In this document: piece by piece, positions 54,681 through 64,000 of the stretch
How the letters are laid out: every line of letters starts with the position of its first letter
Position numbering within the stretch: position 1 is the first letter of the stretch
Assembly: GCA_004321885.1 (NCBI GenBank)
Contig: SCQK01000007.1
Coordinates: 128,001-192,000, forward strand
Direction: 5' to 3'
Origin: Patescibacteria group bacterium
GTDB lineage: Bacteria; Patescibacteriota; Patescibacteriia; Magasanikbacterales; GWA2-37-8
DNA: 64,000 bases
Made by a program: the position numbers and the translations under genes
Notes under the pieces: generated by a model
What the model was told of the DNA's origin: nothing
Database searches by the model: none
Seen by the model: only the letters and a program-made list of their open reading frames with translations

Positions 54681-57600
54681 ATGCAAGCAAAAATTGAACT
54701 GCCCAAGGCGCCAATCGGCGCTATCACTCCCGCGCCCATCGTGGACGAGATGCGCAAATCATATCTGGAATACGCCATGAGCGTGATTGTTTCCCGCGCC
54801 CTGCCTGACGTGCGCGACGGCCTCAAACCGGTGCACCGCCGCATTTTGTACGCTATGTGGAACATGGGCCTGCGCCACAACGCCAAGTTCCGCAAATCGG
54901 CGCACGTGGTCGGCGAGGTGATGGCGAAATACCATCCGCATGGCGACTCGGCAATCTATGATTCCATGGTGCGCATGGCGCAGGATTTTTCCATGGGCCA
55001 CACGCTGGTGCACGGCCAAGGAAACTTTGGCTGTTTCACAAAAGATACCAAAGTCAAATTAACTGATGGCCGTGGTTTGAATTTTGAAGATTTAATCAAA
55101 GAATACGAATCGGGAAAGAAAAATTTTACTTACTCCATAAACAATTCCGGTCTAATTTCCATTGCCGAAATAAAACATCCCAGATTAACCAAAAAATCCG
55201 CTGAAATAATGAAGGTGGTATTGGATAACGGCGAAGAAATCAGATGTACCTTGAATCACCTGTTCATGTTAAGAAATGGAAGCTACAAGGAAGCAAAAGA
55301 TTTACAAGCCGGTGAATCGCTGATGCCCTTGTATCAAAAAATTTCCGAAAAAACCGACAAGTTAAACCGCGAAGGATACATCTTAATCCACCAAAACAAA
55401 ACCGGCGAATGGGTGCCGGCCCACCACTTGGCGGATAATTTTAATCTGAATGAAAAAAAATATGCTATAACGCGCGGCAGAGTTCGTCACCATGTTGATT
55501 ATAATAAATTAAATAATAACCCGGACAATATCATTCGCATGCGCTGGGGCGAACACTGGAAAATTCACTACTCGCACGCGAAAGAAATGCATCAAAATAA
55601 TGAGTACGTAAAAAAACTTGCCGATGGCAGAAAAAAATTCTGGGCCGATAATAAAAATAGGAAAAAATACGCGGAAAGAATTTCTGTCCGCAATATTAAG
55701 AATTGGAAAAATTCGGAATACCGCGAAAAAACGCGTCAATTCCTTAGCGAAACAAACAAGGAGTATTTAAAGAACCATCCGGAAAAAATAGCTGAAATTA
55801 AAAAGACGGCTTCGGCCACTTTTAAAAAATTATGGTCAATACCTTATTATAAAAACTTATTCCACGATAAGATCGTCGCCGCGAACAAAAAAAGAATATC
55901 CAACAATACTGGCAAGAAAAAATTCTTGACTATCTGCAAAGAGGCGTTAAATCGCTTTAAGACAATTAATGAACAATCATACGAGCATGCCCGAAAAAAA
56001 GTTTACCCATATGGACGCGCTACGATGTGGCAGACCGGCTTCAAAAAATACTTTGCTGAAAATTTGGATACACTGACGCAAGAAGCGGTAAAAAACCACA
56101 AGGTGACCAAAATTGAATTTTTGAATGAAAAAGAAGATGTGTTTGATATTACGATTGATAAGTGGCACAATTTCGCTTTGGCCTCCGGAATTTTTGTACA
56201 TAACTCAATGGACGGAGACAACGCCGCCGCCTACCGCTACACCGAAGCCAAATTGGAATCATTGGCCGAAGAAATACTCGCCGACATTGACAAGGAAACG
56301 GTAAACTTCGTCCCCAACTACGATGGCTCGCACAACGAACCGACCGTCCTGCCGGCCAAGGTCCCCAACCTCTTGCTGAACGGCACAGTAGGTATTGCCG
56401 TGGGCATGGCCACTTCCATTCCCCCGCACAATCTGGGCGAACTCTGCGACGGCCTGATAAAACTGATTGACGACCCGGAAACCACGGTGGAAGAACTCTC
56501 GGAAATAATCAAGGGGCCGGACTTCCCCACCGGCGGCATCATTTACAATAAAAAAGATATTTTGGCCGCCTATTCCACGGGTCGCGGCGGCATTGTCATA
56601 CGCGCCAAAGCGGAAATACAGGAAAGCAAATCAGGCCAGTTCCAAATCATAGTGAGCGAAGTGCCTTACCAAATAAACAAAGCGGCGCTGATAGAAAAAA
56701 TCGCCGAGCTGGTGCAGGAAAAAAAGATAGACGGCATCAAGGACCTGCGCGATGAAACCAACAAAGACGGCGTGCGCATCGTTATTGAACTAAAAAAAGA
56801 TTCATATCCGAAAAAAGTTTTAAACCGCCTGTTCCAGCTCACCGAACTGCAGACCACTTTCCACACGAACATGCTCGCTCTGGTGGACGGCATCCAGCCG
56901 CGCGTTTTGAATCTCAAAAACGTCTTGGAAGAATTCATCAAACACCGCCAGGAAATAATCCGCCGGCGCACCGAGTTTGACTTAAACAAGGCCAAGGAGC
57001 GCGCCCATATTTTGGAAGGCCTGAAAATGGCGCTGGACAAAATTGACGCCGTGATAAAAACCATCCGCGCTTCCAAAGACAAGGACGAGGCTAAAAAGAA
57101 CTTGATGTCCAAATTCAAATTCACCGACCGGCAGGCCGTGGCCATTTTGGAAATGAAACTGCAGCAGCTGGCCAATTTGGAAAGACAAAAAATTGAGGAT
57201 GAATTGAAAGAGAAAAAACTGCTGATAAAAGAGCTGGAATCAATACTGGCTTCCAAAACTAAAATTCTGCAAATAATCAAAAAAGACACGGCCGAGTTGA
57301 AGGCCAAATACGGCCGCGAACGCGGAACGCAAATAGTAAGCCACGGCGTGAAGGAATTCACCGTGGAGGACTTGGTGCCGAACGAACCCACGATTATAAT
57401 GATTACCACCGACGGCTATATCAAGCGCCTGCCGCCGGACACCTTCCGTCAGCAATCGCGCGGCGGTAAAGGCGTAATCGGCGTTACCACCAAAGAAGAA
57501 GACAGTGTGGAACACTTACAGGCAACCAACACGCACGACAATATCTTGTTCTTCACCAACCGCGGACGCGTATTCCAGTTGATGGCCTATGATATACCGC

Positions 57601-58319
57601 AAGCCAGCCGCACGGCCAAGGGGCAGGCTCTAGTTAATTTTCTGCAACTGGCGCCCAATGAAAAAGTGACGGCCTTGCTGGGCATGAGCGAGCTGGAAAA
57701 AATTAAATTCCTGGTCATGGTGACGCGCCAAGGGCTGATTAAAAAAACCGCGCTGGAAGATTTTGCTAATGTGCGCAAGAGCGGTCTTATCGCCATCAAA
57801 CTGAAACCGAACGACAATCTGGAATGGGTCAAGCCATCCACCGGCGCGGATGAAATATCCATCGTCACTAAAAAGGGTCAGGCTATCCGATTTAAGGAAA
57901 AAGACGTGCGGCCAATGGGGCGCGGGGCCAGCGGCGTGCGCGGCGTGCGCTTGCACACGGACGACGAAGTGATTTGTATGGATATCGTTGACCCGAAAAA
58001 CGTCTCGCTGGAGTTGTTTATTGTGGGCGAAAACGGTCTGGGCAAACGCACTCCCCTGGCGCAATACAAAGTGCAAGGACGCGGGGGCAGTGGCATCAAG
58101 ACCGCGGCCATCACGGATAAAACCGGATTCCTTATCCACGCCAAGGTCATAGACAAAGTGGAATCGGCCGAGCACGATTTGATACTGATGTCGGCCAAGG
58201 GCCAGGTTATCCGCTTGCCATACAAATCTGTTTCGGTCTCGGGTCGCGCCACCCAGGGCGTGCGCCTGATGCGCTTCAAAGAGGGCGGCGACAAAGTGGG
58301 AAGCGTGACGTTGTTGTAA
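54681..58319 (+). CDS. gyrA: DNA gyrase subunit A interrupted by an in-frame intein (aa 118-508)
   Basis: N-extein ...HGQGNFG, then the intein, then C-extein [17 protein letters not shown] (catalytic Tyr region), GyrA box and a C-terminal beta-pinwheel. Confidence 0.93.
55032..56204 (+). mobile_element. GyrA intein (391 aa) with an HNH-type homing-endonuclease domain
   Basis: Begins with Cys (CFTKDTKV), ends ...GIFVHN, followed by a +1 Ser. An internal HNH motif [28 protein letters not shown] is present. Exactly 1173 nt, in-frame. Confidence 0.85.
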
Positions 58320-58366: not shown

Positions 58367-58437
58367 GCCCTCGGCGCGAATCGAACGCGCATCACCAGCT
58401 TCGGAGGCTAGTGTCCTATCCATTGAACGACGAGGAC
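58367..58437 (-). tRNA. tRNA-Arg (anticodon CCG)
   Basis: Reverse complement GTCCTCG-TC-GTTC-AATGGATAG-GACA-CTAGC-CTCCGAA-GCTGG-TGAT-GCGCG-TTCGATT-CGCGC-CGAGGGC-A. Confidence 0.85.
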
Positions 58438-59432
58438 TAAAATATCCGGCGCAATTTTCTTAACCAGCCGTATACCTTACACTTTTTTTTATTAATAATC
58501 AAGTCAAAAGTGCCCGGGGCTTCTTTGTAGGCGCCGCCAAAACCGAGTTTGAAACGAGTGACACCGGCGTATTGGTGGCGCGGTTCACCTTGCGGCGCGA
58601 TACCGAAAAAATCATAAAACTTGTAGCCCAGCTTTTTTCCCAACTTAATTCCTTCCCATTGCAATAGATACGGGGCCATCAAATGGCGGCACGCGTAATC
58701 GGACGCGCCGTACAGATAAGTAAAGGTGCCACCAAACCCGACAAACACCGCCGAAGCTACGGGCGCGTTTTCGTGATAAGCCGTGAGCTGATAGACAAAA
58801 TCTGAACTGATGACTTTTTTGTAATGCTCCTCCGGGTGGGTCTTGAAATTATCCCGCTTGGCCGTCTCTTTTTCCAATTTGATAAAAACATCCGCGTTCT
58901 TTTCGTTGGCGATTCGCAAATTTTTTCGCGCCGCCAAATTTATATTGTAGCGCGTTTTTTGACCCATGCCGGCAAGCAGTTCATCCTCGGACTTGATTAA
59001 GTCCAAAATCAACGTGGCGCGAGGGGTGATGTCTATTGTCTTGTTCGCCCCCTCCGGAACCTGTTCCGGTTCAACGCGGAAAAACACGCACTTTTTGGAT
59101 TTCAGATAATCAATCAAAGTCTTATATGTTTCGTCAAGGGATTCTTCGCTTCGCTCAGAATGACAATTGGAAATTGGAAATGCTTCACTTCGTTCAGAAA
59201 AAGGGAAATTGGAAATTCCAACAGGTCCTTTGGGGCAAAAGGCGTATTTCCAGCCAAACGGCAAATCAACGTACACAATCTGGGCCCAAGCCAAAACAGC
59301 GCCGTTTTCCTCTATTTCCAAACGCTCAACTTTTTTGCCCTCGGCAATCAAAATATCACCCCATTCCCATGATTGGGAAAAAGGCAGATTTTGAGGCCAA
59401 TTCGCGCTATTTTCCACGACTCTCATCTGCAT
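58437..59432 (-). CDS. FemAB-family peptidoglycan interpeptide-bridge aminoacyltransferase
   Basis: FemAB-like fold signature ...YKFYDFFGI...FKLGFGG at the C-terminus. It contains in-frame family B/C insertions (59138-59220). Confidence 0.7.
   Translation of the reverse strand: MQMRVVENSANWPQNLPFSQSWEWGDILIAEGKKVERLEIEENGAVLAWAQIVYVDLPFGWKYAFCPKGPVGISNFPFSERSEAFPISNCHSERSEESLDETYKTLIDYLKSKKCVFFRVEPEQVPEGANKTIDITPRATLILDLIKSEDELLAGMGQKTRYNINLAARKNLRIANEKNADVFIKLEKETAKRDNFKTHPEEHYKKVISSDFVYQLTAYHENAPVASAVFVGFGGTFTYLYGASDYACRHLMAPYLLQWEGIKLGKKLGYKFYDFFGIAPQGEPRHQYAGVTRFKLGFGGAYKEAPGTFDLIINKKKCKVYGWLRKLRRIF
59138..59220. repeat. composite insertion in the femAB-like gene: a family C half element (59138-59165) plus family B heptamer arrays (59164-59220); encodes ...NFPFSERSEAFPISNCHSERSEE
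   Basis: gggattcttcgcttcgctcagaatgacaattggaaattggaaatg...gggaaattggaaattcc. Confidence 0.8.
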
Positions 59433-61078: not shown

Positions 61079-61151
61079 GCGCCGCTAGCTCAGCTGGTAG
61101 AGCAGAGGACTCTTAATCCTAAGGTCCAGGGTTCGATCCCCTGGCGGCGCA
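61079..61151 (+). tRNA. tRNA-Lys (anticodon CTT)
   Basis: GCGCCGC-TA-GCTC-AGCTGGTA-GAGC-A-GAGGA-CTCTTAA-TCCTA-AGGTC-CAGGG-TTCGATC-CCCTG-GCGGCGC-A. Confidence 0.85.
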
Positions 61152-61157
61152 CAATTC

Positions 61158-61229
61158 GCCCTCGTCGTTCAATGGATAGGACACCAGGCTTCGAACCTGG
61201 TAATGTGGGTTCGATTCCTGCCGAGGGCA
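61158..61229 (+). tRNA. tRNA-Arg (anticodon TCG)
   Basis: GCCCTCG-TC-GTTC-AATGGATAG-GACA-CCAGG-CTTCGAA-CCTGG-TAAT-GTGGG-TTCGATT-CCTGC-CGAGGGC-A. Confidence 0.85.
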
Positions 61230-62003
61230 CTAAACCGTCACACTCTCTACTTTTATTCTTCCTTCCAAATAATTTTTATCATCTTTGAACGCGGCCGTTG
61301 CTTCATCCGCCAATTCGCCACTGCCCAACACAATTATTACAAACGGATTTTCTGTTGTAAATAATTCTCCAAATCCGTGATGGCCGAAAGCGATATTTAC
61401 CGCCACTTTTAATTCTTCGGTCGCGTATTCAGCCGGCAAATACGCGCGGCTGATAACAAAACCCATGGGCAAACCATCGGCAGACGGATTAAATTTTCCC
61501 GTGCCGTCAAAATACACCACACGCGCGCTGTGAAATTCGGCCGGCCGCGCCATTTCTGTCAAAGCCACATGGCGGTAGCGCGCCCCGAGTTTGTCGGCTA
61601 ATTTTTTCGCCCAATCAATCGCCAAATTATCCATTTGCTCGGATGTCGGTTCGGTTCCTTGGTTGTCGCGCTTGTAAGCGAGCCCGGCCGCGCCGCAACC
61701 TCCGTGGCTTGTGATTTCGCTCACGCCCAAATTTTTCATCAGCCCGGCTGTTTTTTTCAGCCGCTCGGCTTCGGAGCTCGCCGGAAACAAAATGCCAGAA
61801 CCGGCCATGGGGAATTTTGTCAGGCCGCCCATTTTTTTGTGCGCCACGCCTTCATCCATGCAGACAACGCACTCGTGCGTGTTCACAAAACATTTGCCCC
61901 ACTCCGGCAAATTTTTTAAATATTTTTCCGTTCCCTGTTCGTAAATTTTTCGCATTACTTCTTGTCCATTGCTCCATTCAGCTTCCAGATTCTCATTATG
62001 CAT
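61230..62003 (-). CDS. hypothetical protein with a Cys/His-rich putative metal site
   Basis: HECVVCMDEG ... SHGGCGAAG about 60 aa apart, with spacing reminiscent of beta-carbonic-anhydrase-type zinc ligands but not diagnostic. Confidence 0.4.
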   Translation of the reverse strand: MHNENLEAEWSNGQEVMRKIYEQGTEKYLKNLPEWGKCFVNTHECVVCMDEGVAHKKMGGLTKFPMAGSGILFPASSEAERLKKTAGLMKNLGVSEITSHGGCGAAGLAYKRDNQGTEPTSEQMDNLAIDWAKKLADKLGARYRHVALTEMARPAEFHSARVVYFDGTGKFNPSADGLPMGFVISRAYLPAEYATEELKVAVNIAFGHHGFGELFTTENPFVIIVLGSGELADEATAAFKDDKNYLEGRIKVESVTV

Positions 62004-62098
62004 AAAGTTGTCATTCCAATTTAATATCGCATTACGCGAAATTTAGAGATAAGCACCAACCCGCCGCGCCTATCTCCTTGGAACTTGGCAGGCAAGTG

Positions 62099-62746
62099 CT
62101 AAGCGGCGTCAGACGACTCCAACAGCCCGGGATCCGGCTCTTTTCCTTGAGGCCAGACCTCAATCTCCGGGTGCGTCTTCCTCCACTGCACCCATCCCTT
62201 GGCCCGAAGCCTCAAGAAACTATGATACCCCGAGTCATGATCGTAGAGGCCGAAGATGAGAAGCACCTTCGTCTTTCCGATGGCCAGGCGCTTCTTGATA
62301 TTCAGCTTGCCCTTGACCATCAGGTCAAGACACTGTATCAGCTTCAGCTTGTACTTTTCACAACCGCGGCAGGTGGCGTGATGACCTACAATGGTGAGGT
62401 AGTTATTTCCCTCGGTGTTCATGAACGTCCGCAGGGTTACTTCTATTACAGTATAGTACGGCCGATCGTCGTTCAGCGGGGAGAAGGGGAAAACCGCCAG
62501 GTGCGCCCCCACGAAACTGACGTTCGCCATGCCGTTCAGCGGGTCTCTTCTTCCCCGGCCAGCCAGCGAAAGGACGCGCTCATCGGCCTCTTGGTTGAAG
62601 CGGCCGCATCCGCAAGTGATGTACGCCTTGCCTGGCTCAAAGCCGTGGCCGTCCAGCCGATTAAGTACCCCGGCCGCCAACAACTGACTAATGACCTTTC
62701 GCTCCTCATCGTTGTAGCCGAATAAACTTGACTCCCTCTGTGTCAT
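62099..62746 (-). CDS. hypothetical protein, higher-GC gene (first of a 2-gene cassette); 4-Cys CGC...CRGC motif
   Basis: GC clearly above the window average; GC-rich codons; no family recognised. Confidence 0.5.
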   Translation of the reverse strand: MTQRESSLFGYNDEERKVISQLLAAGVLNRLDGHGFEPGKAYITCGCGRFNQEADERVLSLAGRGRRDPLNGMANVSFVGAHLAVFPFSPLNDDRPYYTVIEVTLRTFMNTEGNNYLTIVGHHATCRGCEKYKLKLIQCLDLMVKGKLNIKKRLAIGKTKVLLIFGLYDHDSGYHSFLRLRAKGWVQWRKTHPEIEVWPQGKEPDPGLLESSDAA

Positions 62747-62897
62747 CTGTGTAACCTCCTTGGTTAGGAAGGTGCGTTTGTTGATTGATAATATGATATT
62801 GTATTGATTTTAACTAAAAAAGTCAAAAAAAGAAGGCCCGACCGCAAAAGCTGAAAAACTTGCGGCGGACCTTGAAAGGACAAATAAAGCAGACAGC

Positions 62898-63464
62898 CTA
62901 CTGTGGACGGACGAGCTGCATGCGGCGGAACTCGCGCCACTTCTTACCGGAGAGGAAATACGTTCTCTTATCCTCTTCCGCTCCAGTCCAGTCCACATGA
63001 AGCTTGCACCTCACGCGGAGGCCGTGGTTGATCTCATCCTTGATCTCATCCTTGACGCCGACTATCCAGTCGACGATGGTGATGACGTCCAGCCCCCAGG
63101 CATCAGCTTTCCCACAGGGGACATGAGCAATGAGGACCACGGTGTCAATCTCCTTGAGCTCCCGCGACTCGCGAATCTCCTCGAACAACATGTTGCCCTT
63201 CTCGCGACCGGCGGGATCCGGGCACTTGCGGTTCATCAGCAGAGGACCGCCGTTGATGGCGTGTAGGTGCGGCCGGGGCCGGCAGACACGCTCAATATAC
63301 TTCATCTGATCGAGCGCCTGATCGCCATCGCCGCAGAGCACCACGATCGCCCCGCCGCTGACATCCAACAATTTCGGCTCGACGTCCAGGAAAAAACCCT
63401 CTTCGCGCAGAACTGCCAGATCGTGCAACTCCTTCTCGGTAAGCTTACGGGCGTGTTTTCCCAC
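62898..63464 (-). CDS. hypothetical protein, higher-GC gene (second of the cassette)
   Basis: IVVLCGDGDQ ... VVLIAHVPCG motifs; no family recognised. A 420-nt AT-rich leader lies upstream. Confidence 0.5.
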   Translation of the reverse strand: MGKHARKLTEKELHDLAVLREEGFFLDVEPKLLDVSGGAIVVLCGDGDQALDQMKYIERVCRPRPHLHAINGGPLLMNRKCPDPAGREKGNMLFEEIRESRELKEIDTVVLIAHVPCGKADAWGLDVITIVDWIVGVKDEIKDEINHGLRVRCKLHVDWTGAEEDKRTYFLSGKKWREFRRMQLVRPQ

Positions 63465-63838
63465 TTGCGTCTCCTTTTGGCGTAGGTAGTTGAGGGAAAG
63501 AGCGCTTCAAATTTTGAAACACTCGGTTTCATAATTTGCGAACATCATTTTACTCCGCTTCTCAAAAAAAATCAAGGGTCGTTCTTTTTTGAAAAACAAT
63601 TTTTTACAGACTGCTTGCGGGGTCGCATGACCCTGTGCATAACTTTTCCTAAAACTATTTTCATTCCGAAAAAAAAGTTTTATAATATATGCAGGTCGAG
63701 AAGAAAAATTTTACGTTGATGCTTGTCATGTAAAATTTCTTCAAAAATTTTTGCCGCGCTCATCAGATGGGAACTTACCCTAGGGGGCTCTCACGAGGAT
63801 GAACGCCCAAAAATTATCTTACTCTCTATTCCAGACCT

Positions 63839-63864
63839 GTATCCCGACTAAGTCGGGATGACAG
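63839..63864. repeat. family C hairpin GTATCCCGACTAAGTCGGGATGACAG
   Basis: ATGACA terminus and a perfect hairpin. Confidence 0.75.
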
Positions 63865-63893
63865 TGCGCTGGGACAGAAAGGGGGTGTCTATT

Positions 63894-63941
63894 ATGGCCA
63901 AGAAGAAAGCCAAGAAGAAGGGCGGTAAGAAGCGAAAATAG
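63894..63941 (+). CDS. candidate 15-aa Lys-rich small protein MAKKKAKKKGGKKRK
   Basis: SD-like AAAGGGGGTG 7 nt upstream of the ATG and an intrinsic terminator 10 nt after the stop. Confidence 0.35.
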   Translation: MAKKKAKKKGGKKRK

Positions 63942-63951
63942 TTTGGTAACT

Positions 63952-63987
63952 AAAACCTCCCGGCTTAGCCGGGAGGTTTTGTTTTTT
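63952..63987 (+). terminator. rho-independent terminator
   Basis: aaaaCCTCCCGGC-ttag-CCGGGAGGttttgtttttt. Confidence 0.75.
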
Positions 63988-64000
63988 AGAATAATCGCGA

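What the first reader, a model, noticed from the sequence alone, without database searches (positions are those of the whole stretch)
62004..63900. Compositionally distinct two-gene cassette of unknown function bounded by repeat fragments
Genes 62099-62746 and 62898-63464 have noticeably higher GC and different codon preferences from the rest of the window. They are followed by a 420-nt AT-rich non-coding leader (63465-63890). The cassette is flanked by TGTCAT-type repeat fragments (62005-62020 and 63839-63864) and by a hairpin terminator (62050-62085). Neither protein resembles a family I can name (CGC...CRGC and LCGDGDQ...HVPCG motifs). The layout is typical of a horizontally acquired accessory or defence-type module. 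The neighbouring gene 61230-62003 has native composition and a Cys/His metal-site-like pattern.
Basis: partly seen in the sequence, partly recalled or inferred. Interest (0 to 1): 0.6.

Follow-up and report, generated by a model that had tools for sequence, protein, structure and literature searches.

The report
Carbonic-anhydrase-fold gene trio in Patescibacteria

Summary
The genes exist as described, on the minus strand: A 62099-62746 and B 62898-63464. Their composition is clearly atypical. GC3 is 0.72/0.76 against 0.58±0.08 for window genes. GAG and AAG make up 85% of Glu and of Lys codons, against 29% and 25% elsewhere (p about 1e-10).

The family has 714 cluster representatives and is homologous to Pfam Pro_CA_2 (97%). 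A keeps only the Cys/His/Cys triad and looks degenerate. Neighbour C (61230-62003) is a fused two-lobed beta-CA fold and recurs as a partner of B.

Across 68 loci, B-type genes commonly sit beside a second beta-CA-like gene and beside the F1Fo ATP synthase operon. The B-then-C slot is syntenic in relatives. The atypical composition is a trait of the whole family.

The TGTCAT "boundaries" are dispersed REP-like repeats. The "leader" contains a conserved, divergently transcribed tiny Lys-rich gene. I find no support for a defence role. Repeated lateral replacement of B-type genes remains plausible.

The parts
61230..62003 (-). Gene C (257 aa). It is a conserved Patescibacteria protein with a fused two-lobed beta-carbonic-anhydrase fold and one Cys48/Asp50/His100/Cys103 site. 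It recurs as a partner of B-type genes and has native codon usage.
62009..62017 (+). TGTCATTCC, a 9-nt head of the dispersed REP-like repeat with no palindrome attached. It lies 5 nt upstream of C's start codon on the other strand.
62052..62100 (-). Hairpin downstream of A, a possible weak terminator.
   Evidence: -27.5 kcal/mol, z -1.94, no clean T-run. The terminator scan did not call it.
62099..62746 (-). Gene A (215 aa). It is a singleton, degenerate paralog of the B family. It keeps the Cys/His/Cys triad (CGC...HHATCRGC) but has lost Asp46, Asp48, His66, the NGG motif, Pro116 and the KRTYF motif.
   Evidence: hhalign against the B family gives 95.6% probability, E 1.2e-8, over 176 columns. 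Identity to any family member is at most 26%. It matches only itself in the 5.8-billion-protein search. SD AAGGAGG at 62755-62761. The antisense ORF 62078-62725(+) is a shadow of the high GC3.
62798..62826 (-). Promoter-like site for A (TTGACT-17-TACAAT, 10 of 12 matches).
   Evidence: This is a consensus match only.
62833..62873 (-). Intrinsic terminator after B: a G+C-rich hairpin followed by CUUUUUUU.
   Evidence: -30.2 kcal/mol, z -4.41, 0 of 200 shuffles fold as well.
62898..63464 (-). Gene B (188 aa, GTG start). It is an intact member of an unnamed Patescibacteria family of beta-carbonic-anhydrase-fold proteins, with motifs CGDGDQ, PRPH..NGGPL, HVPCGKA and KRTYF.
63028..63051 (-). Exact 12-nt tandem duplication inside B, encoding KDEIKDEI.
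   Evidence: (repeat D20) and the translation.
63547..63575 (-). Promoter-like site for B (TTGATT-17-TAAAAT, 9 of 12 matches).
   Evidence: This is a consensus match only.
63632..63761 (+). Conserved non-coding block of a divergent transcription unit. It contains the box CCTGTGCATAACTTT (63632-63646), TATAAT (63681-63686) and a conserved hairpin (63708-63736) whose loop AUGCUUGU is invariant.
   Evidence: 72-76% DNA identity to 11 other loci, 9 distinct after removing near-identical pairs. Alignment. The hairpin shows compensatory changes at its outer and innermost pairs. No Rfam match.
63839..63864 (-). Complete REP-like palindrome (TGTCATCCCGACTTAGTCGGGATACA), inserted in the small ORF's leader in this genome only.
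63896..63943 (+). Conserved tiny Lys-rich ORF (MAKKKAKKKGGKKRK), with a strong RBS and its own terminator at 63951-63981.
   Evidence: Homologous 14-25-codon poly-Lys/Ala ORFs (one cut by the end of the extracted stretch) occur at the same place in L008, L010, L012, L016, L024, L041, L075, L083 and L089. Terminator.

Best explanation
**What it is**
Genes B, A and C (62898-63464, 62099-62746, 61230-62003, all on the minus strand) form a cluster of three divergent proteins with the beta-carbonic-anhydrase fold.

- B is an intact member of an unnamed family of about 185 aa that is widespread in Patescibacteria. It carries the Cys-Asp-His-Cys set of a type-II beta-CA zinc site (C44, D46, H114, C117) but lacks the Arg of the canonical Asp-Arg dyad, reading CxDGDQ instead of CxDxR.
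- C is a conserved single-chain, two-lobed (pseudo-dimeric) beta-CA-fold protein with one such site.
- A is a lineage-specific, degenerate copy of the B type. It keeps the three metal ligands and has gained extra cysteines, but it has lost the catalytic Asp.

**How it probably works (inferred)**
- B binds zinc and, as a dimer or together with its beta-CA-like partner (C here, a Pro_CA_2 protein in other genomes), interconverts CO2 and bicarbonate or hydrolyses a related small molecule such as COS or CS2. This would serve the proton and bicarbonate economy of the cell.
- That link is suggested because in other genomes the partner gene is the last gene of the F1Fo ATP synthase operon, with the B-type gene beside it.
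- A is probably non-catalytic, acting as a structural or regulatory subunit, or drifting.

**Composition**
B-type genes occupy conserved slots, but their sequence and base composition are decoupled from the host genome. The foreign codon usage of A and B most likely reflects replacement of the slot's occupant by lateral transfer or turnover of old paralogs. It does not indicate insertion of a defence island.
For: **Shown**
- A and B are homologs (direct phmmer hits of A to family members).
- The Zn triad is invariant and Asp nearly invariant in 70 B-family sequences. C48/D50/H100/C103 are invariant in 53 C-family sequences.
- The B family is homologous to Pro_CA_2 across both motifs. The best sequence hit in the PDB is a beta-CA, aligned at HxxCG.
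- The family is large (714 representatives). All loci that could be placed look like Patescibacteria.
- Of 39 distinct loci with flanks on both sides, 13 have an adjacent Pro_CA_2 gene, 4 a C-family gene and 1 a second B-like gene.
- 24 of 68 loci abut atp genes, in three different configurations. The Pro_CA_2 or C gene typically lies 4-12 nt after atpC. Pfam confirms the epsilon subunit and Pro_CA_2 assignments.
- The order leader, B-type gene, C is shared with L010, L041, L075 and L089. L016, L024 and L083 have leader then B without C. L008 and L012 have leader then C without B.
- The composition anomaly is family-wide, and B divergence is decoupled from C divergence.

**Inferred**
- Zinc binding, the substrate, hetero-oligomer formation, the functional link to the ATPase, and the non-catalytic status of A are all inferences.
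Against: - No member of the trio has the Arg of the Asp-Arg dyad that canonical beta-CAs need, so plain CA activity is uncertain.
- None reaches any Pfam or NCBIfam threshold.
- Foldseek TM-scores are modest (0.40-0.48).
- This window has no atp genes, so the ATPase link rests on other genomes.
- 19 of 39 well-flanked loci have no adjacent beta-CA-like partner.
- Conserved gene order in a clade of small genomes can persist without any functional link. For example, B-type genes also sit next to RNase III/NusB or NYN/rpsO.
- The AF2 model of B rests on only 7 sequences.
Confidence: 0.6

Rival explanations
1. A and B are a recently and horizontally acquired accessory or defence-type module, inserted between C and the upstream gene and bounded by repeats.
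For: - A and B have strongly foreign codon usage, and C does not.
- A is absent from every relative.
- L008 and L012 have an empty slot.
- B identity is unrelated to host relatedness.
- A tRNA pair lies 1 kb away.
Against: - PADLOC and PHROGs give no match.
- There are no relatives in 2.9 million viral contigs.
- No integrase or transposase is visible in the part of the locus that can be read.
- The flanking repeats are dispersed REP-like elements, 15 per 64 kb, and one of the two is only 9 nt long.
- B-type genes sit in the same slot in at least seven other genomes, and elsewhere next to housekeeping operons.
- The fold is enzymatic, of the beta-CA type.
Confidence: 0.1
2. B-type proteins are not hydratases. 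They are zinc-dependent sensors or regulators, for example of CO2/bicarbonate, pH or redox state, or they are accessory or assembly factors of the F1Fo ATPase. The closed Cys-Asp-His-Cys site would act as a switch. A would be a second switch variant.
For: - The dyad Arg is absent, and Asp is retained as a possible fourth zinc ligand, as in a closed type-II site.
- The genes are tightly placed at both ends of atp operons.
- There is a precedent: DabA, a beta-CA-like protein with a C/D/H/C site, shows no free CA activity when purified (bioRxiv 10.1101/476713).
- A has extra cysteines (CGC, CRGC) that suggest a fully ligated metal site.
Against: - No DNA-binding or signalling domain is present, and the whole protein is one beta-CA-like domain.
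- There is no direct evidence of interaction with the ATPase.
- The window cluster is not near atp genes.
Confidence: 0.2
3. The atypical segment is an assembly chimera: reads from another population were joined into the contig at repeats.
For: - Composition switches sharply between C and A.
- REP-like repeats lie near both ends.
- Only one assembly holds these exact proteins.
Against: - The order leader, B-type gene, C is reproduced in independent assemblies of other genomes. These include L010 and L011, which come from different samples and show the same compositional contrast.
- The conserved leader to the right of B is syntenic.
- The repeats are far too short to mislead an assembler.
Confidence: 0.03

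Closest known systems
Pfam PF20393 Pro_CA_2 (putative carbonic anhydrase; uncharacterised small beta-CA-like proteins)
   Same: It is homologous to the B family by profile-profile comparison (97.2%, E 4.7e-11, 115 columns covering both zinc motifs). It has the same Cys...His-x-x-Cys-Gly ligands and a similar size. It is encoded next to B-type genes in 13 of 39 well-flanked loci.
   Different: - A, B and C do not match the Pfam model even at E<=1.
- Pro_CA_2 keeps CxDxR, whereas the B family has CxDGDQ.
- The B family has an extra N-terminal helical segment and family-specific motifs (PRxH, NGGAL, KRTYF).
- Pro_CA_2 genes have host-like composition and B-type genes do not.
Canonical beta-class carbonic anhydrases (PF00484; e.g. 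Cab 1g5c, CafD 6lac) and the related COS and CS2 hydrolases (3vrk, 3ten)
   Different: - Sequence identity is 10-18%.
- There is no Pfam match; 2 of 70 members reach only E 0.05.
- The dyad Arg is replaced.
- The substrate is unknown.
Single-chain two-lobed beta-CA folds: carboxysomal CsoSCA (8thm), Porphyridium tandem beta-CA (1ddz), cadmium/zeta-CA CDCA1 (3uk8)
   Different: - There is no detectable sequence similarity.
- C has CxDEG rather than CxDxR.
- C is much shorter than CsoSCA.
- There is no carboxysome or CCM context.
DabA of DAB inorganic-carbon pumps, and cyanobacterial CupA/B: beta-CA-like proteins coupled to ion-translocating membrane complexes
   Same: This is an analogy only. 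DabA has a divergent type-II beta-CA-like C/D/H/C zinc site and is genetically tied to an ion-motive machine. DabA shows no free CA activity when isolated (bioRxiv 10.1101/476713; PMC13144422 listed). In 3-4 loci the B-type gene lies near Proton_antipo_M and NuoB-like genes.
   Different: - DabA is about 830 aa (PF10070) and pairs with a PF00361 subunit.
- B is 188 aa and pairs with soluble beta-CA-like proteins and atp operons.
- Homology to DabA was not tested.

Membership tests
beta-carbonic anhydrase superfamily (fold level) | An alpha/beta fold that matches solved beta-CAs better than any other fold. | tested here: met
- A: assigned by homology to B only.
beta-carbonic anhydrase superfamily (fold level) | Zinc ligands Cys ... 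His-x-x-Cys conserved at the motif positions. | tested here: met
   C44/H114/C117 are invariant in 70 B-family sequences, A included. C48/H100/C103 are invariant in 53 C-family sequences. The motifs align with those of Pro_CA_2 and 1ddz. Metal binding itself was not tested.
Catalytically canonical beta-CA (PF00484) | An Asp-Arg dyad in a CxDxR motif. | tested here: not met
   B has CGDGDQ, with Asp present and Arg absent. A has CGRFNQ, with neither. C has CMDEG, with Asp present and Arg absent.
Catalytically canonical beta-CA (PF00484) | A match to the Pfam Pro_CA model above the gathering score. | tested here: not met
   A, B and C give no hit at E<=1. Only 2 of 70 family members reach E 0.049.
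Catalytically canonical beta-CA (PF00484) | CO2 hydration activity. | not testable with these tools
   This needs enzyme assays or complementation of a CA-free strain.
Pfam PF20393 Pro_CA_2 | A match to the family HMM above the gathering score (30 bits). | tested here: not met
   A, B and C give no hit, whereas the neighbouring partner genes in other loci score 35-65 bits. Profile-profile homology is 97%. B is therefore a sister family, not a member.
Known anti-phage defence systems | Similarity to a protein of a known or candidate defence system, or residence in a defence island. | tested here: not met
   PADLOC gives no hit at E<=1. Neighbours across 68 loci are atp genes, beta-CA-like genes, RNase III/NusB/L32, NYN/rpsO and the like.
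Mobile cassette or genomic island | Specific flanking direct or inverted repeats, and a recombinase or other mobility gene. | tested here: not met
   The only shared flanking sequence is the 9-nt head of a repeat present 15 times in the window. There is no recombinase between 61000 and 64000. Sequence beyond 64000 cannot be seen.

The most novel reading that the evidence does not exclude
Patescibacteria carry a previously unrecognised two-component beta-CA-like module. One component is a host-like partner (Pro_CA_2 or the two-lobed C type) encoded as the terminal gene of the F1Fo ATP synthase operon. The other is a fast-turning-over, compositionally foreign B-type subunit. Together they would couple CO2/bicarbonate chemistry, or sensing of it, to the ATPase-driven proton cycle of these fermentative symbionts. 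The constant replacement of the B-type gene would reflect diversifying pressure, for example adaptation to host or environment chemistry, or antagonism.
Probability: 0.2. Interest if true: 0.7.

Novelty: new variant of a known kind. Interest (0 to 1): 0.5.

Why it matters
- Three adjacent "hypothetical" genes of a candidate-phyla-radiation genome can now be assigned to a fold and a probable metal site. One of them represents a family of at least 700 sequence clusters that no curated library names.
- Inorganic-carbon and proton handling in Patescibacteria is poorly understood. A beta-CA-like gene at the end of the atp operon, with a second such gene beside it, gives a concrete and testable lead.
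- The family-wide mismatch between B-type genes and their host genomes in composition and divergence is unusual for a small enzyme. It could reveal gene turnover at conserved slots in reduced genomes.
- For annotation, the result warns that foreign composition combined with a lack of Pfam hits does not mean a defence island.

Tried and rejected
- **Domain libraries.** Pfam, NCBIfam, PADLOC and PHROGs were scanned with A, B and C at E<=1. None gave a hit.
- **Pairwise comparison.** BLASTP among A, B and C was not significant. Homology between A and B appeared only with profiles.
- **C against the other families.** C against the B family by hhalign is only suggestive (41.9%, E 2.7e-4). C against Pro_CA_2 gives nothing. 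The assignment of C therefore rests on structure alone.
- **PDB sequence search.** The 6-sequence profile gave only spurious HMA-domain hits on the PCGK motif. The C profile gave none.
- **Locus retrieval.** A tighter 10-sequence subset worked.
- **Viral contigs.** Three scans found no relatives.
- **Rfam.** 61900-64000 gave nothing near any family's gathering score.
- **AFDB Foldseek.** The library was not available.
- **Literature.** Searches for carbonic anhydrase with Patescibacteria, for the ATP synthase operon, for PF20393 and for Pro_CA_2 found nothing relevant.
- **High-expression codon bias, considered and rejected.** atp genes and L32 in the flanks do not share the bias.
- **The plus-strand ORF 62078-62725 as the real gene, considered and rejected.** Homology and the GC3>GC1>GC2 pattern support the minus strand.
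Full report
**1. What is in the sequence**

The window is from a Patescibacteria (candidate phyla radiation) metagenome-assembled genome. The three proteins are NCBI entries EPN28_02345, EPN28_02350 and EPN28_02355 on a 214.5-kb contig, all annotated as hypothetical.

All three genes lie on the minus strand:
- C: 61230-62003, 257 aa.
- A: 62099-62746, 215 aa, ATG start, SD AAGGAGG.
- B: 62898-63464, 188 aa, GTG start, SD AAGGAG.

A plus-strand ORF of equal length (62078-62725) overlaps A. Its first codon position coincides with A's third position, which has GC 0.72. A also has homologs, so the minus strand is the coding strand.

tRNA-Lys(CTT) and tRNA-Arg(TCG) lie at 61079-61230.

**2. The observation checked quantitatively**

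*Composition.* A and B have GC 0.563 and 0.589, against a mean of 0.50 (sd 0.044) over the ORFs of at least 100 aa called in the window. Their GC3 is 0.72 and 0.76 against 0.58 (sd 0.083). That is about 1.5-2 sd, at the top of the distribution.

*Codon usage.* The codon contrast is much sharper:

| Codon pair | A+B | Other 50 genes | Fisher p |
|---|---|---|---|
| GAG / GAA | 26 / 4 | 401 / 958 | 2e-10 |
| AAG / AAA | 25 / 4 | 407 / 1232 | 1e-11 |
| TTC / TTT | 12 / 2 | 284 / 543 | 1e-4 |

- No other gene in the window exceeds 0.56 for GAG (apart from the L32 gene, which has a single Glu codon) or 0.50 for AAG.
- A and B rank third and fifth lowest of 51 genes in fit to the window's codon usage.
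- C is native in this respect (GAG 0.24, AAG 0.05).
- The compositional claim is therefore confirmed.

*The non-coding stretch.* 63465-63890 has GC 0.41, which is ordinary for intergenic DNA here (range 0.27-0.58).

*The repeats.*
- TGTCATYCY occurs 15 times in the window against 1.2 expected. It is the head of dispersed REP-like palindromes of the form TGTCATTCC-stem-loop-GGAATCC.
- The copy at 63839-63864 is a full palindrome.
- The copy at 62009-62017 is only 9 nt long and lies just before C's start codon.
- These repeats are not cassette boundaries, and no other specific flanking repeat exists.

*Hairpins and promoters.*
- The hairpin after A (62052-62100) is moderate (z -1.9). A strong terminator follows B (62833-62873, z -4.4).
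- Promoter-like sites precede A (62826..62798) and B (63575..63547).
- A and B therefore look like separate transcription units.

**3. What the proteins are**

No Pfam, NCBIfam, PADLOC or PHROG model matches A, B or C at E<=1.

*Homologs.*
- The word-indexed search found only five distant relatives of B (32-39% identity). It found none for A.
- A profile of the B relatives aligns with A over 176 columns (hhalign 95.6%, E 1.2e-8). A also hits family members directly, at no more than 26% identity. A and B are distant paralogs.
- The exhaustive profile search found 714 cluster representatives at E<=1e-3, of which 553 are at 1e-10 or better. Most are 180-200 aa.

*Conserved residues.* In a 70-sequence alignment:
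- The only invariant residues are C44, H114 and C117 in B numbering.
- D46, D48, H66, G72, G73, K104, P116, A120 and Y169 are at least 90% conserved.
- The family motifs are C[AGS]DGDQ, PRxH..NGGAL, K.I.TV.LY.H.PCG.A and KRTYF.S..W.

*Structure of B.*
- The AlphaFold model has pLDDT 83.7 and pTM 0.83.
- Foldseek also returns beta-CAs almost exclusively (probability up to 0.99, TM 0.40-0.48).

*Relation to Pro_CA_2.*
- The family profile is homologous to Pro_CA_2 (PF20393) proteins: 97.2%, E 4.7e-11, 115 columns spanning both zinc motifs.
- Its best sequence hit in the PDB is a beta-CA, aligned at HxxCG.

*Conclusion for B and A.*
- B is a divergent beta-CA-superfamily protein. It has the Cys/Asp/His/Cys set of a type-II site but no Arg of the Asp-Arg dyad.
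- A retains only the Cys/His/Cys triad. Its motifs read CGRFNQ, VGAH, HHATCRGC and YHSFL, and it has gained neighbouring cysteines. I read it as a degenerate, probably non-catalytic copy. That reading is an inference.

**4. The neighbour C belongs to the same story**

- C has more than 100 homologs in Patescibacteria, none with a Pfam domain.
- C48, D50, H100 and C103 are invariant.
- Its model is very confident (pLDDT 97.1).
- Its best structural matches are the three known single-chain, two-lobed beta-CA architectures:
- Sequence-profile support for a link between C and B is weak (41.9%). The assignment of C is therefore structural.

**5. Genomic context in other genomes**

I collected 68 distinct loci that carry a B-type gene.

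*Adjacent beta-CA-like genes.* Of the 39 loci with at least 700 bp on both sides (Pfam checks):

| Adjacent gene | Loci |
|---|---|
| Pro_CA_2 gene | 13 |
| C-family gene | 4 |
| Weak second B-like gene | 1 |
| Split (frameshifted) B-type gene scored as a second B-like hit | 2 |
| None of these | 19 |

*ATP synthase.*
- 24 of the 68 loci abut the F1Fo ATP synthase operon (epsilon subunit confirmed by Pfam).
- Three configurations occur:
  - Co-directional, after atpC.
  - Convergent on an atpC-Pro_CA_2 pair.
  - Divergent from atpB.
- The Pro_CA_2 or C gene typically starts 4-12 nt after atpC, so it is effectively the last gene of the operon. Examples are L014, L057, L067 and L033.
- This window has no atp gene.

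*Other recurrent neighbours.* These are RNase III/NusB/L32, NYN plus rpsO, and in a few loci NuoB-like and Proton_antipo_M genes.

*Defence and phage.* No defence or phage genes recur near B-type genes, and three scans of viral contigs found no relatives.

**6. Synteny of this particular locus**

- Relatives share the block GyrA, FemAB, L32, NusB, RNase III, tRNAs.
- The order is conserved small-ORF leader, then B-type gene, then C in L010/L011, L041, L075 and L089.
- The order is leader then B-type gene, without C, in L016, L024 and L083.
- The order is leader then C, without B, in L008 and L012.
- The slot is therefore conserved, and B-type genes are its usual occupant. A is unique to this genome.

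**7. The compositional anomaly is a family trait**

- In 30 of 36 loci the B-type gene has higher GC3 than its flanking genes (mean +0.11, Wilcoxon p 1.6e-6).
- In 27 of 36 loci it has more G-ending Glu and Lys codons (p 1.7e-4).
- GC3 of the B gene correlates weakly with GC3 of the flanks (r 0.35). Partner genes track the host (r 0.87).
- Between genomes, B identity stays at 28-45% whatever the identity of the adjacent C protein, which ranges from 31 to 74%. For L075 against L089, C is 74% identical and B 32%.
- RNase III of the window is 83% identical to that of L010, but B is only 26-33% identical, depending on the alignment.
- These figures fit two readings:
  - Repeated replacement of the slot's occupant by lateral transfer.
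  - Differential loss of old tandem paralogs combined with an unexplained constraint on synonymous sites.
- They do not fit a single recent island insertion. I regard this point as unexplained.

**8. Mechanism**

*Shown:*
- Fold.
- Conserved ligand set.
- Paralogy of A and B.
- Recurrent pairing with a second beta-CA-like gene.
- Linkage to atp operons in other genomes.

*Inferred:*
- B binds zinc and acts as a hydratase or hydrolase of CO2 or a related small molecule.
- It acts as a homodimer or with its partner. In beta-CAs the active sites lie at subunit interfaces, and C, CsoSCA and zeta-CA are fused pseudo-dimers (established knowledge).
- It serves proton and bicarbonate balance around the ATPase.

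The missing Arg keeps the exact chemistry open. A regulatory or sensor role with a closed Cys/Asp/His/Cys site is a serious rival. It is analogous to DabA, which has such a site, is coupled to a cation gradient and shows no free CA activity (bioRxiv 10.1101/476713).

**9. The "leader" region**

Window 63625-63990 carries a conserved unit on the plus strand:
- A near-invariant box, CCTGTGCATAACTTT (63632-63646).
- TATAAT (63681-63686).
- A hairpin (63708-63736) with an invariant loop and compensatory changes at its outer and innermost pairs.
- A strong RBS.
- A 15-codon ORF, MAKKKAKKKGGKKRK (63896-63943).
- A terminator (63951-63981).

Nine other distinct loci carry the same unit, with poly-Lys/Ala peptides of 14-25 residues. 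No Rfam family matches it.

**10. Verdict**

- The interpretation as a defence-type island bounded by repeats is not supported.
- The locus is a trio of divergent beta-carbonic-anhydrase-fold genes belonging to unnamed Patescibacteria families.
- B-type genes show unusual family-wide compositional and evolutionary behaviour, and in other genomes they are linked to the ATP synthase operon.

Noticed in passing
window 63632-63981 (+); also L008, L010, L012, L016, L024, L041, L075, L083, L089: A conserved, divergently transcribed unit lies upstream of B. It consists of the box CCTGTGCATAACTTT, a -10 element, a conserved hairpin (63708-63736) with invariant loop AUGCUUGU, a strong RBS, a tiny poly-Lys/Ala ORF (MAKKKAKKKGGKKRK, 63896-63943) and a terminator. 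No Rfam family matches it. It could encode a very small basic ribosome- or nucleic-acid-associated peptide with an autoregulatory leader.
   Followed up: partly
36 B-family loci (e.g. L010/L011, L015, L023, L067, L089) and window 62099-63464: B-type genes are systematically richer in GC3 and in G-ending Glu/Lys codons than their flanking genes. Their sequence divergence is decoupled from that of adjacent genes. The partner genes behave like host genes. The cause is unknown.
   Followed up: partly
L014, L017, L020, L033, L057, L067 and others: In many Patescibacteria a Pro_CA_2 or C-family beta-CA-like gene starts 4-12 nt after atpC, which makes it effectively a ninth gene of the F1Fo ATP synthase operon.
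   Followed up: partly
window, 15 sites (e.g. 4535, 21630, 26855, 33811, 51263, 59157, 63855): A dispersed family of short REP-like palindromes (TGTCATTCC-stem-loop-GGAATCC) occurs about 13 times more often than expected. Several variants of the stem exist.
   Followed up: partly
window 58437-59432 (-): The FemAB-like gene contains an in-frame stretch, SERSEAFPISNCHSERSEES. It looks like a translated REP-like repeat, and a repeat copy sits at 59157.
   Followed up: no
window 54681-58319 (+): The GyrA ORF is 1212 aa long and contains an intein-like insertion (about 380 aa, running from ...[12 protein letters not shown] to ...FVHNSMDGD) in the N-terminal domain. The relatives' GyrA is about 805-825 aa.
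   Followed up: no
window 63028-63051 (-): An exact 12-nt tandem duplication inside B gives KDEIKDEI. It indicates recent slippage in a helix that is variable across the family.
   Followed up: no
window 61079-61152 (+): tRNA-Lys(CUU), the dedicated reader of AAG, lies about 1 kb from the two genes that use AAG for 25 of 29 Lys codons. tRNAs also lie between the B-type gene and RNase III in L016. This may be coincidence.
   Followed up: no
L010 4184-4882: The B-type protein in the same slot of a 963-kb Patescibacteria contig carries a hydrophobic insertion of about 35 aa (NLDFGWRILLLLLYPVIWFMGKAM) between the NGG motif and the HxPCG strand. It may be a membrane anchor.
   Followed up: no
L023 5001-5609, L066 4001-4609, L089 3842-4479: In these loci the B-type gene is split into two adjacent ORFs, by a frameshift or a stop. 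This suggests occasional pseudogenisation of the family.
   Followed up: no
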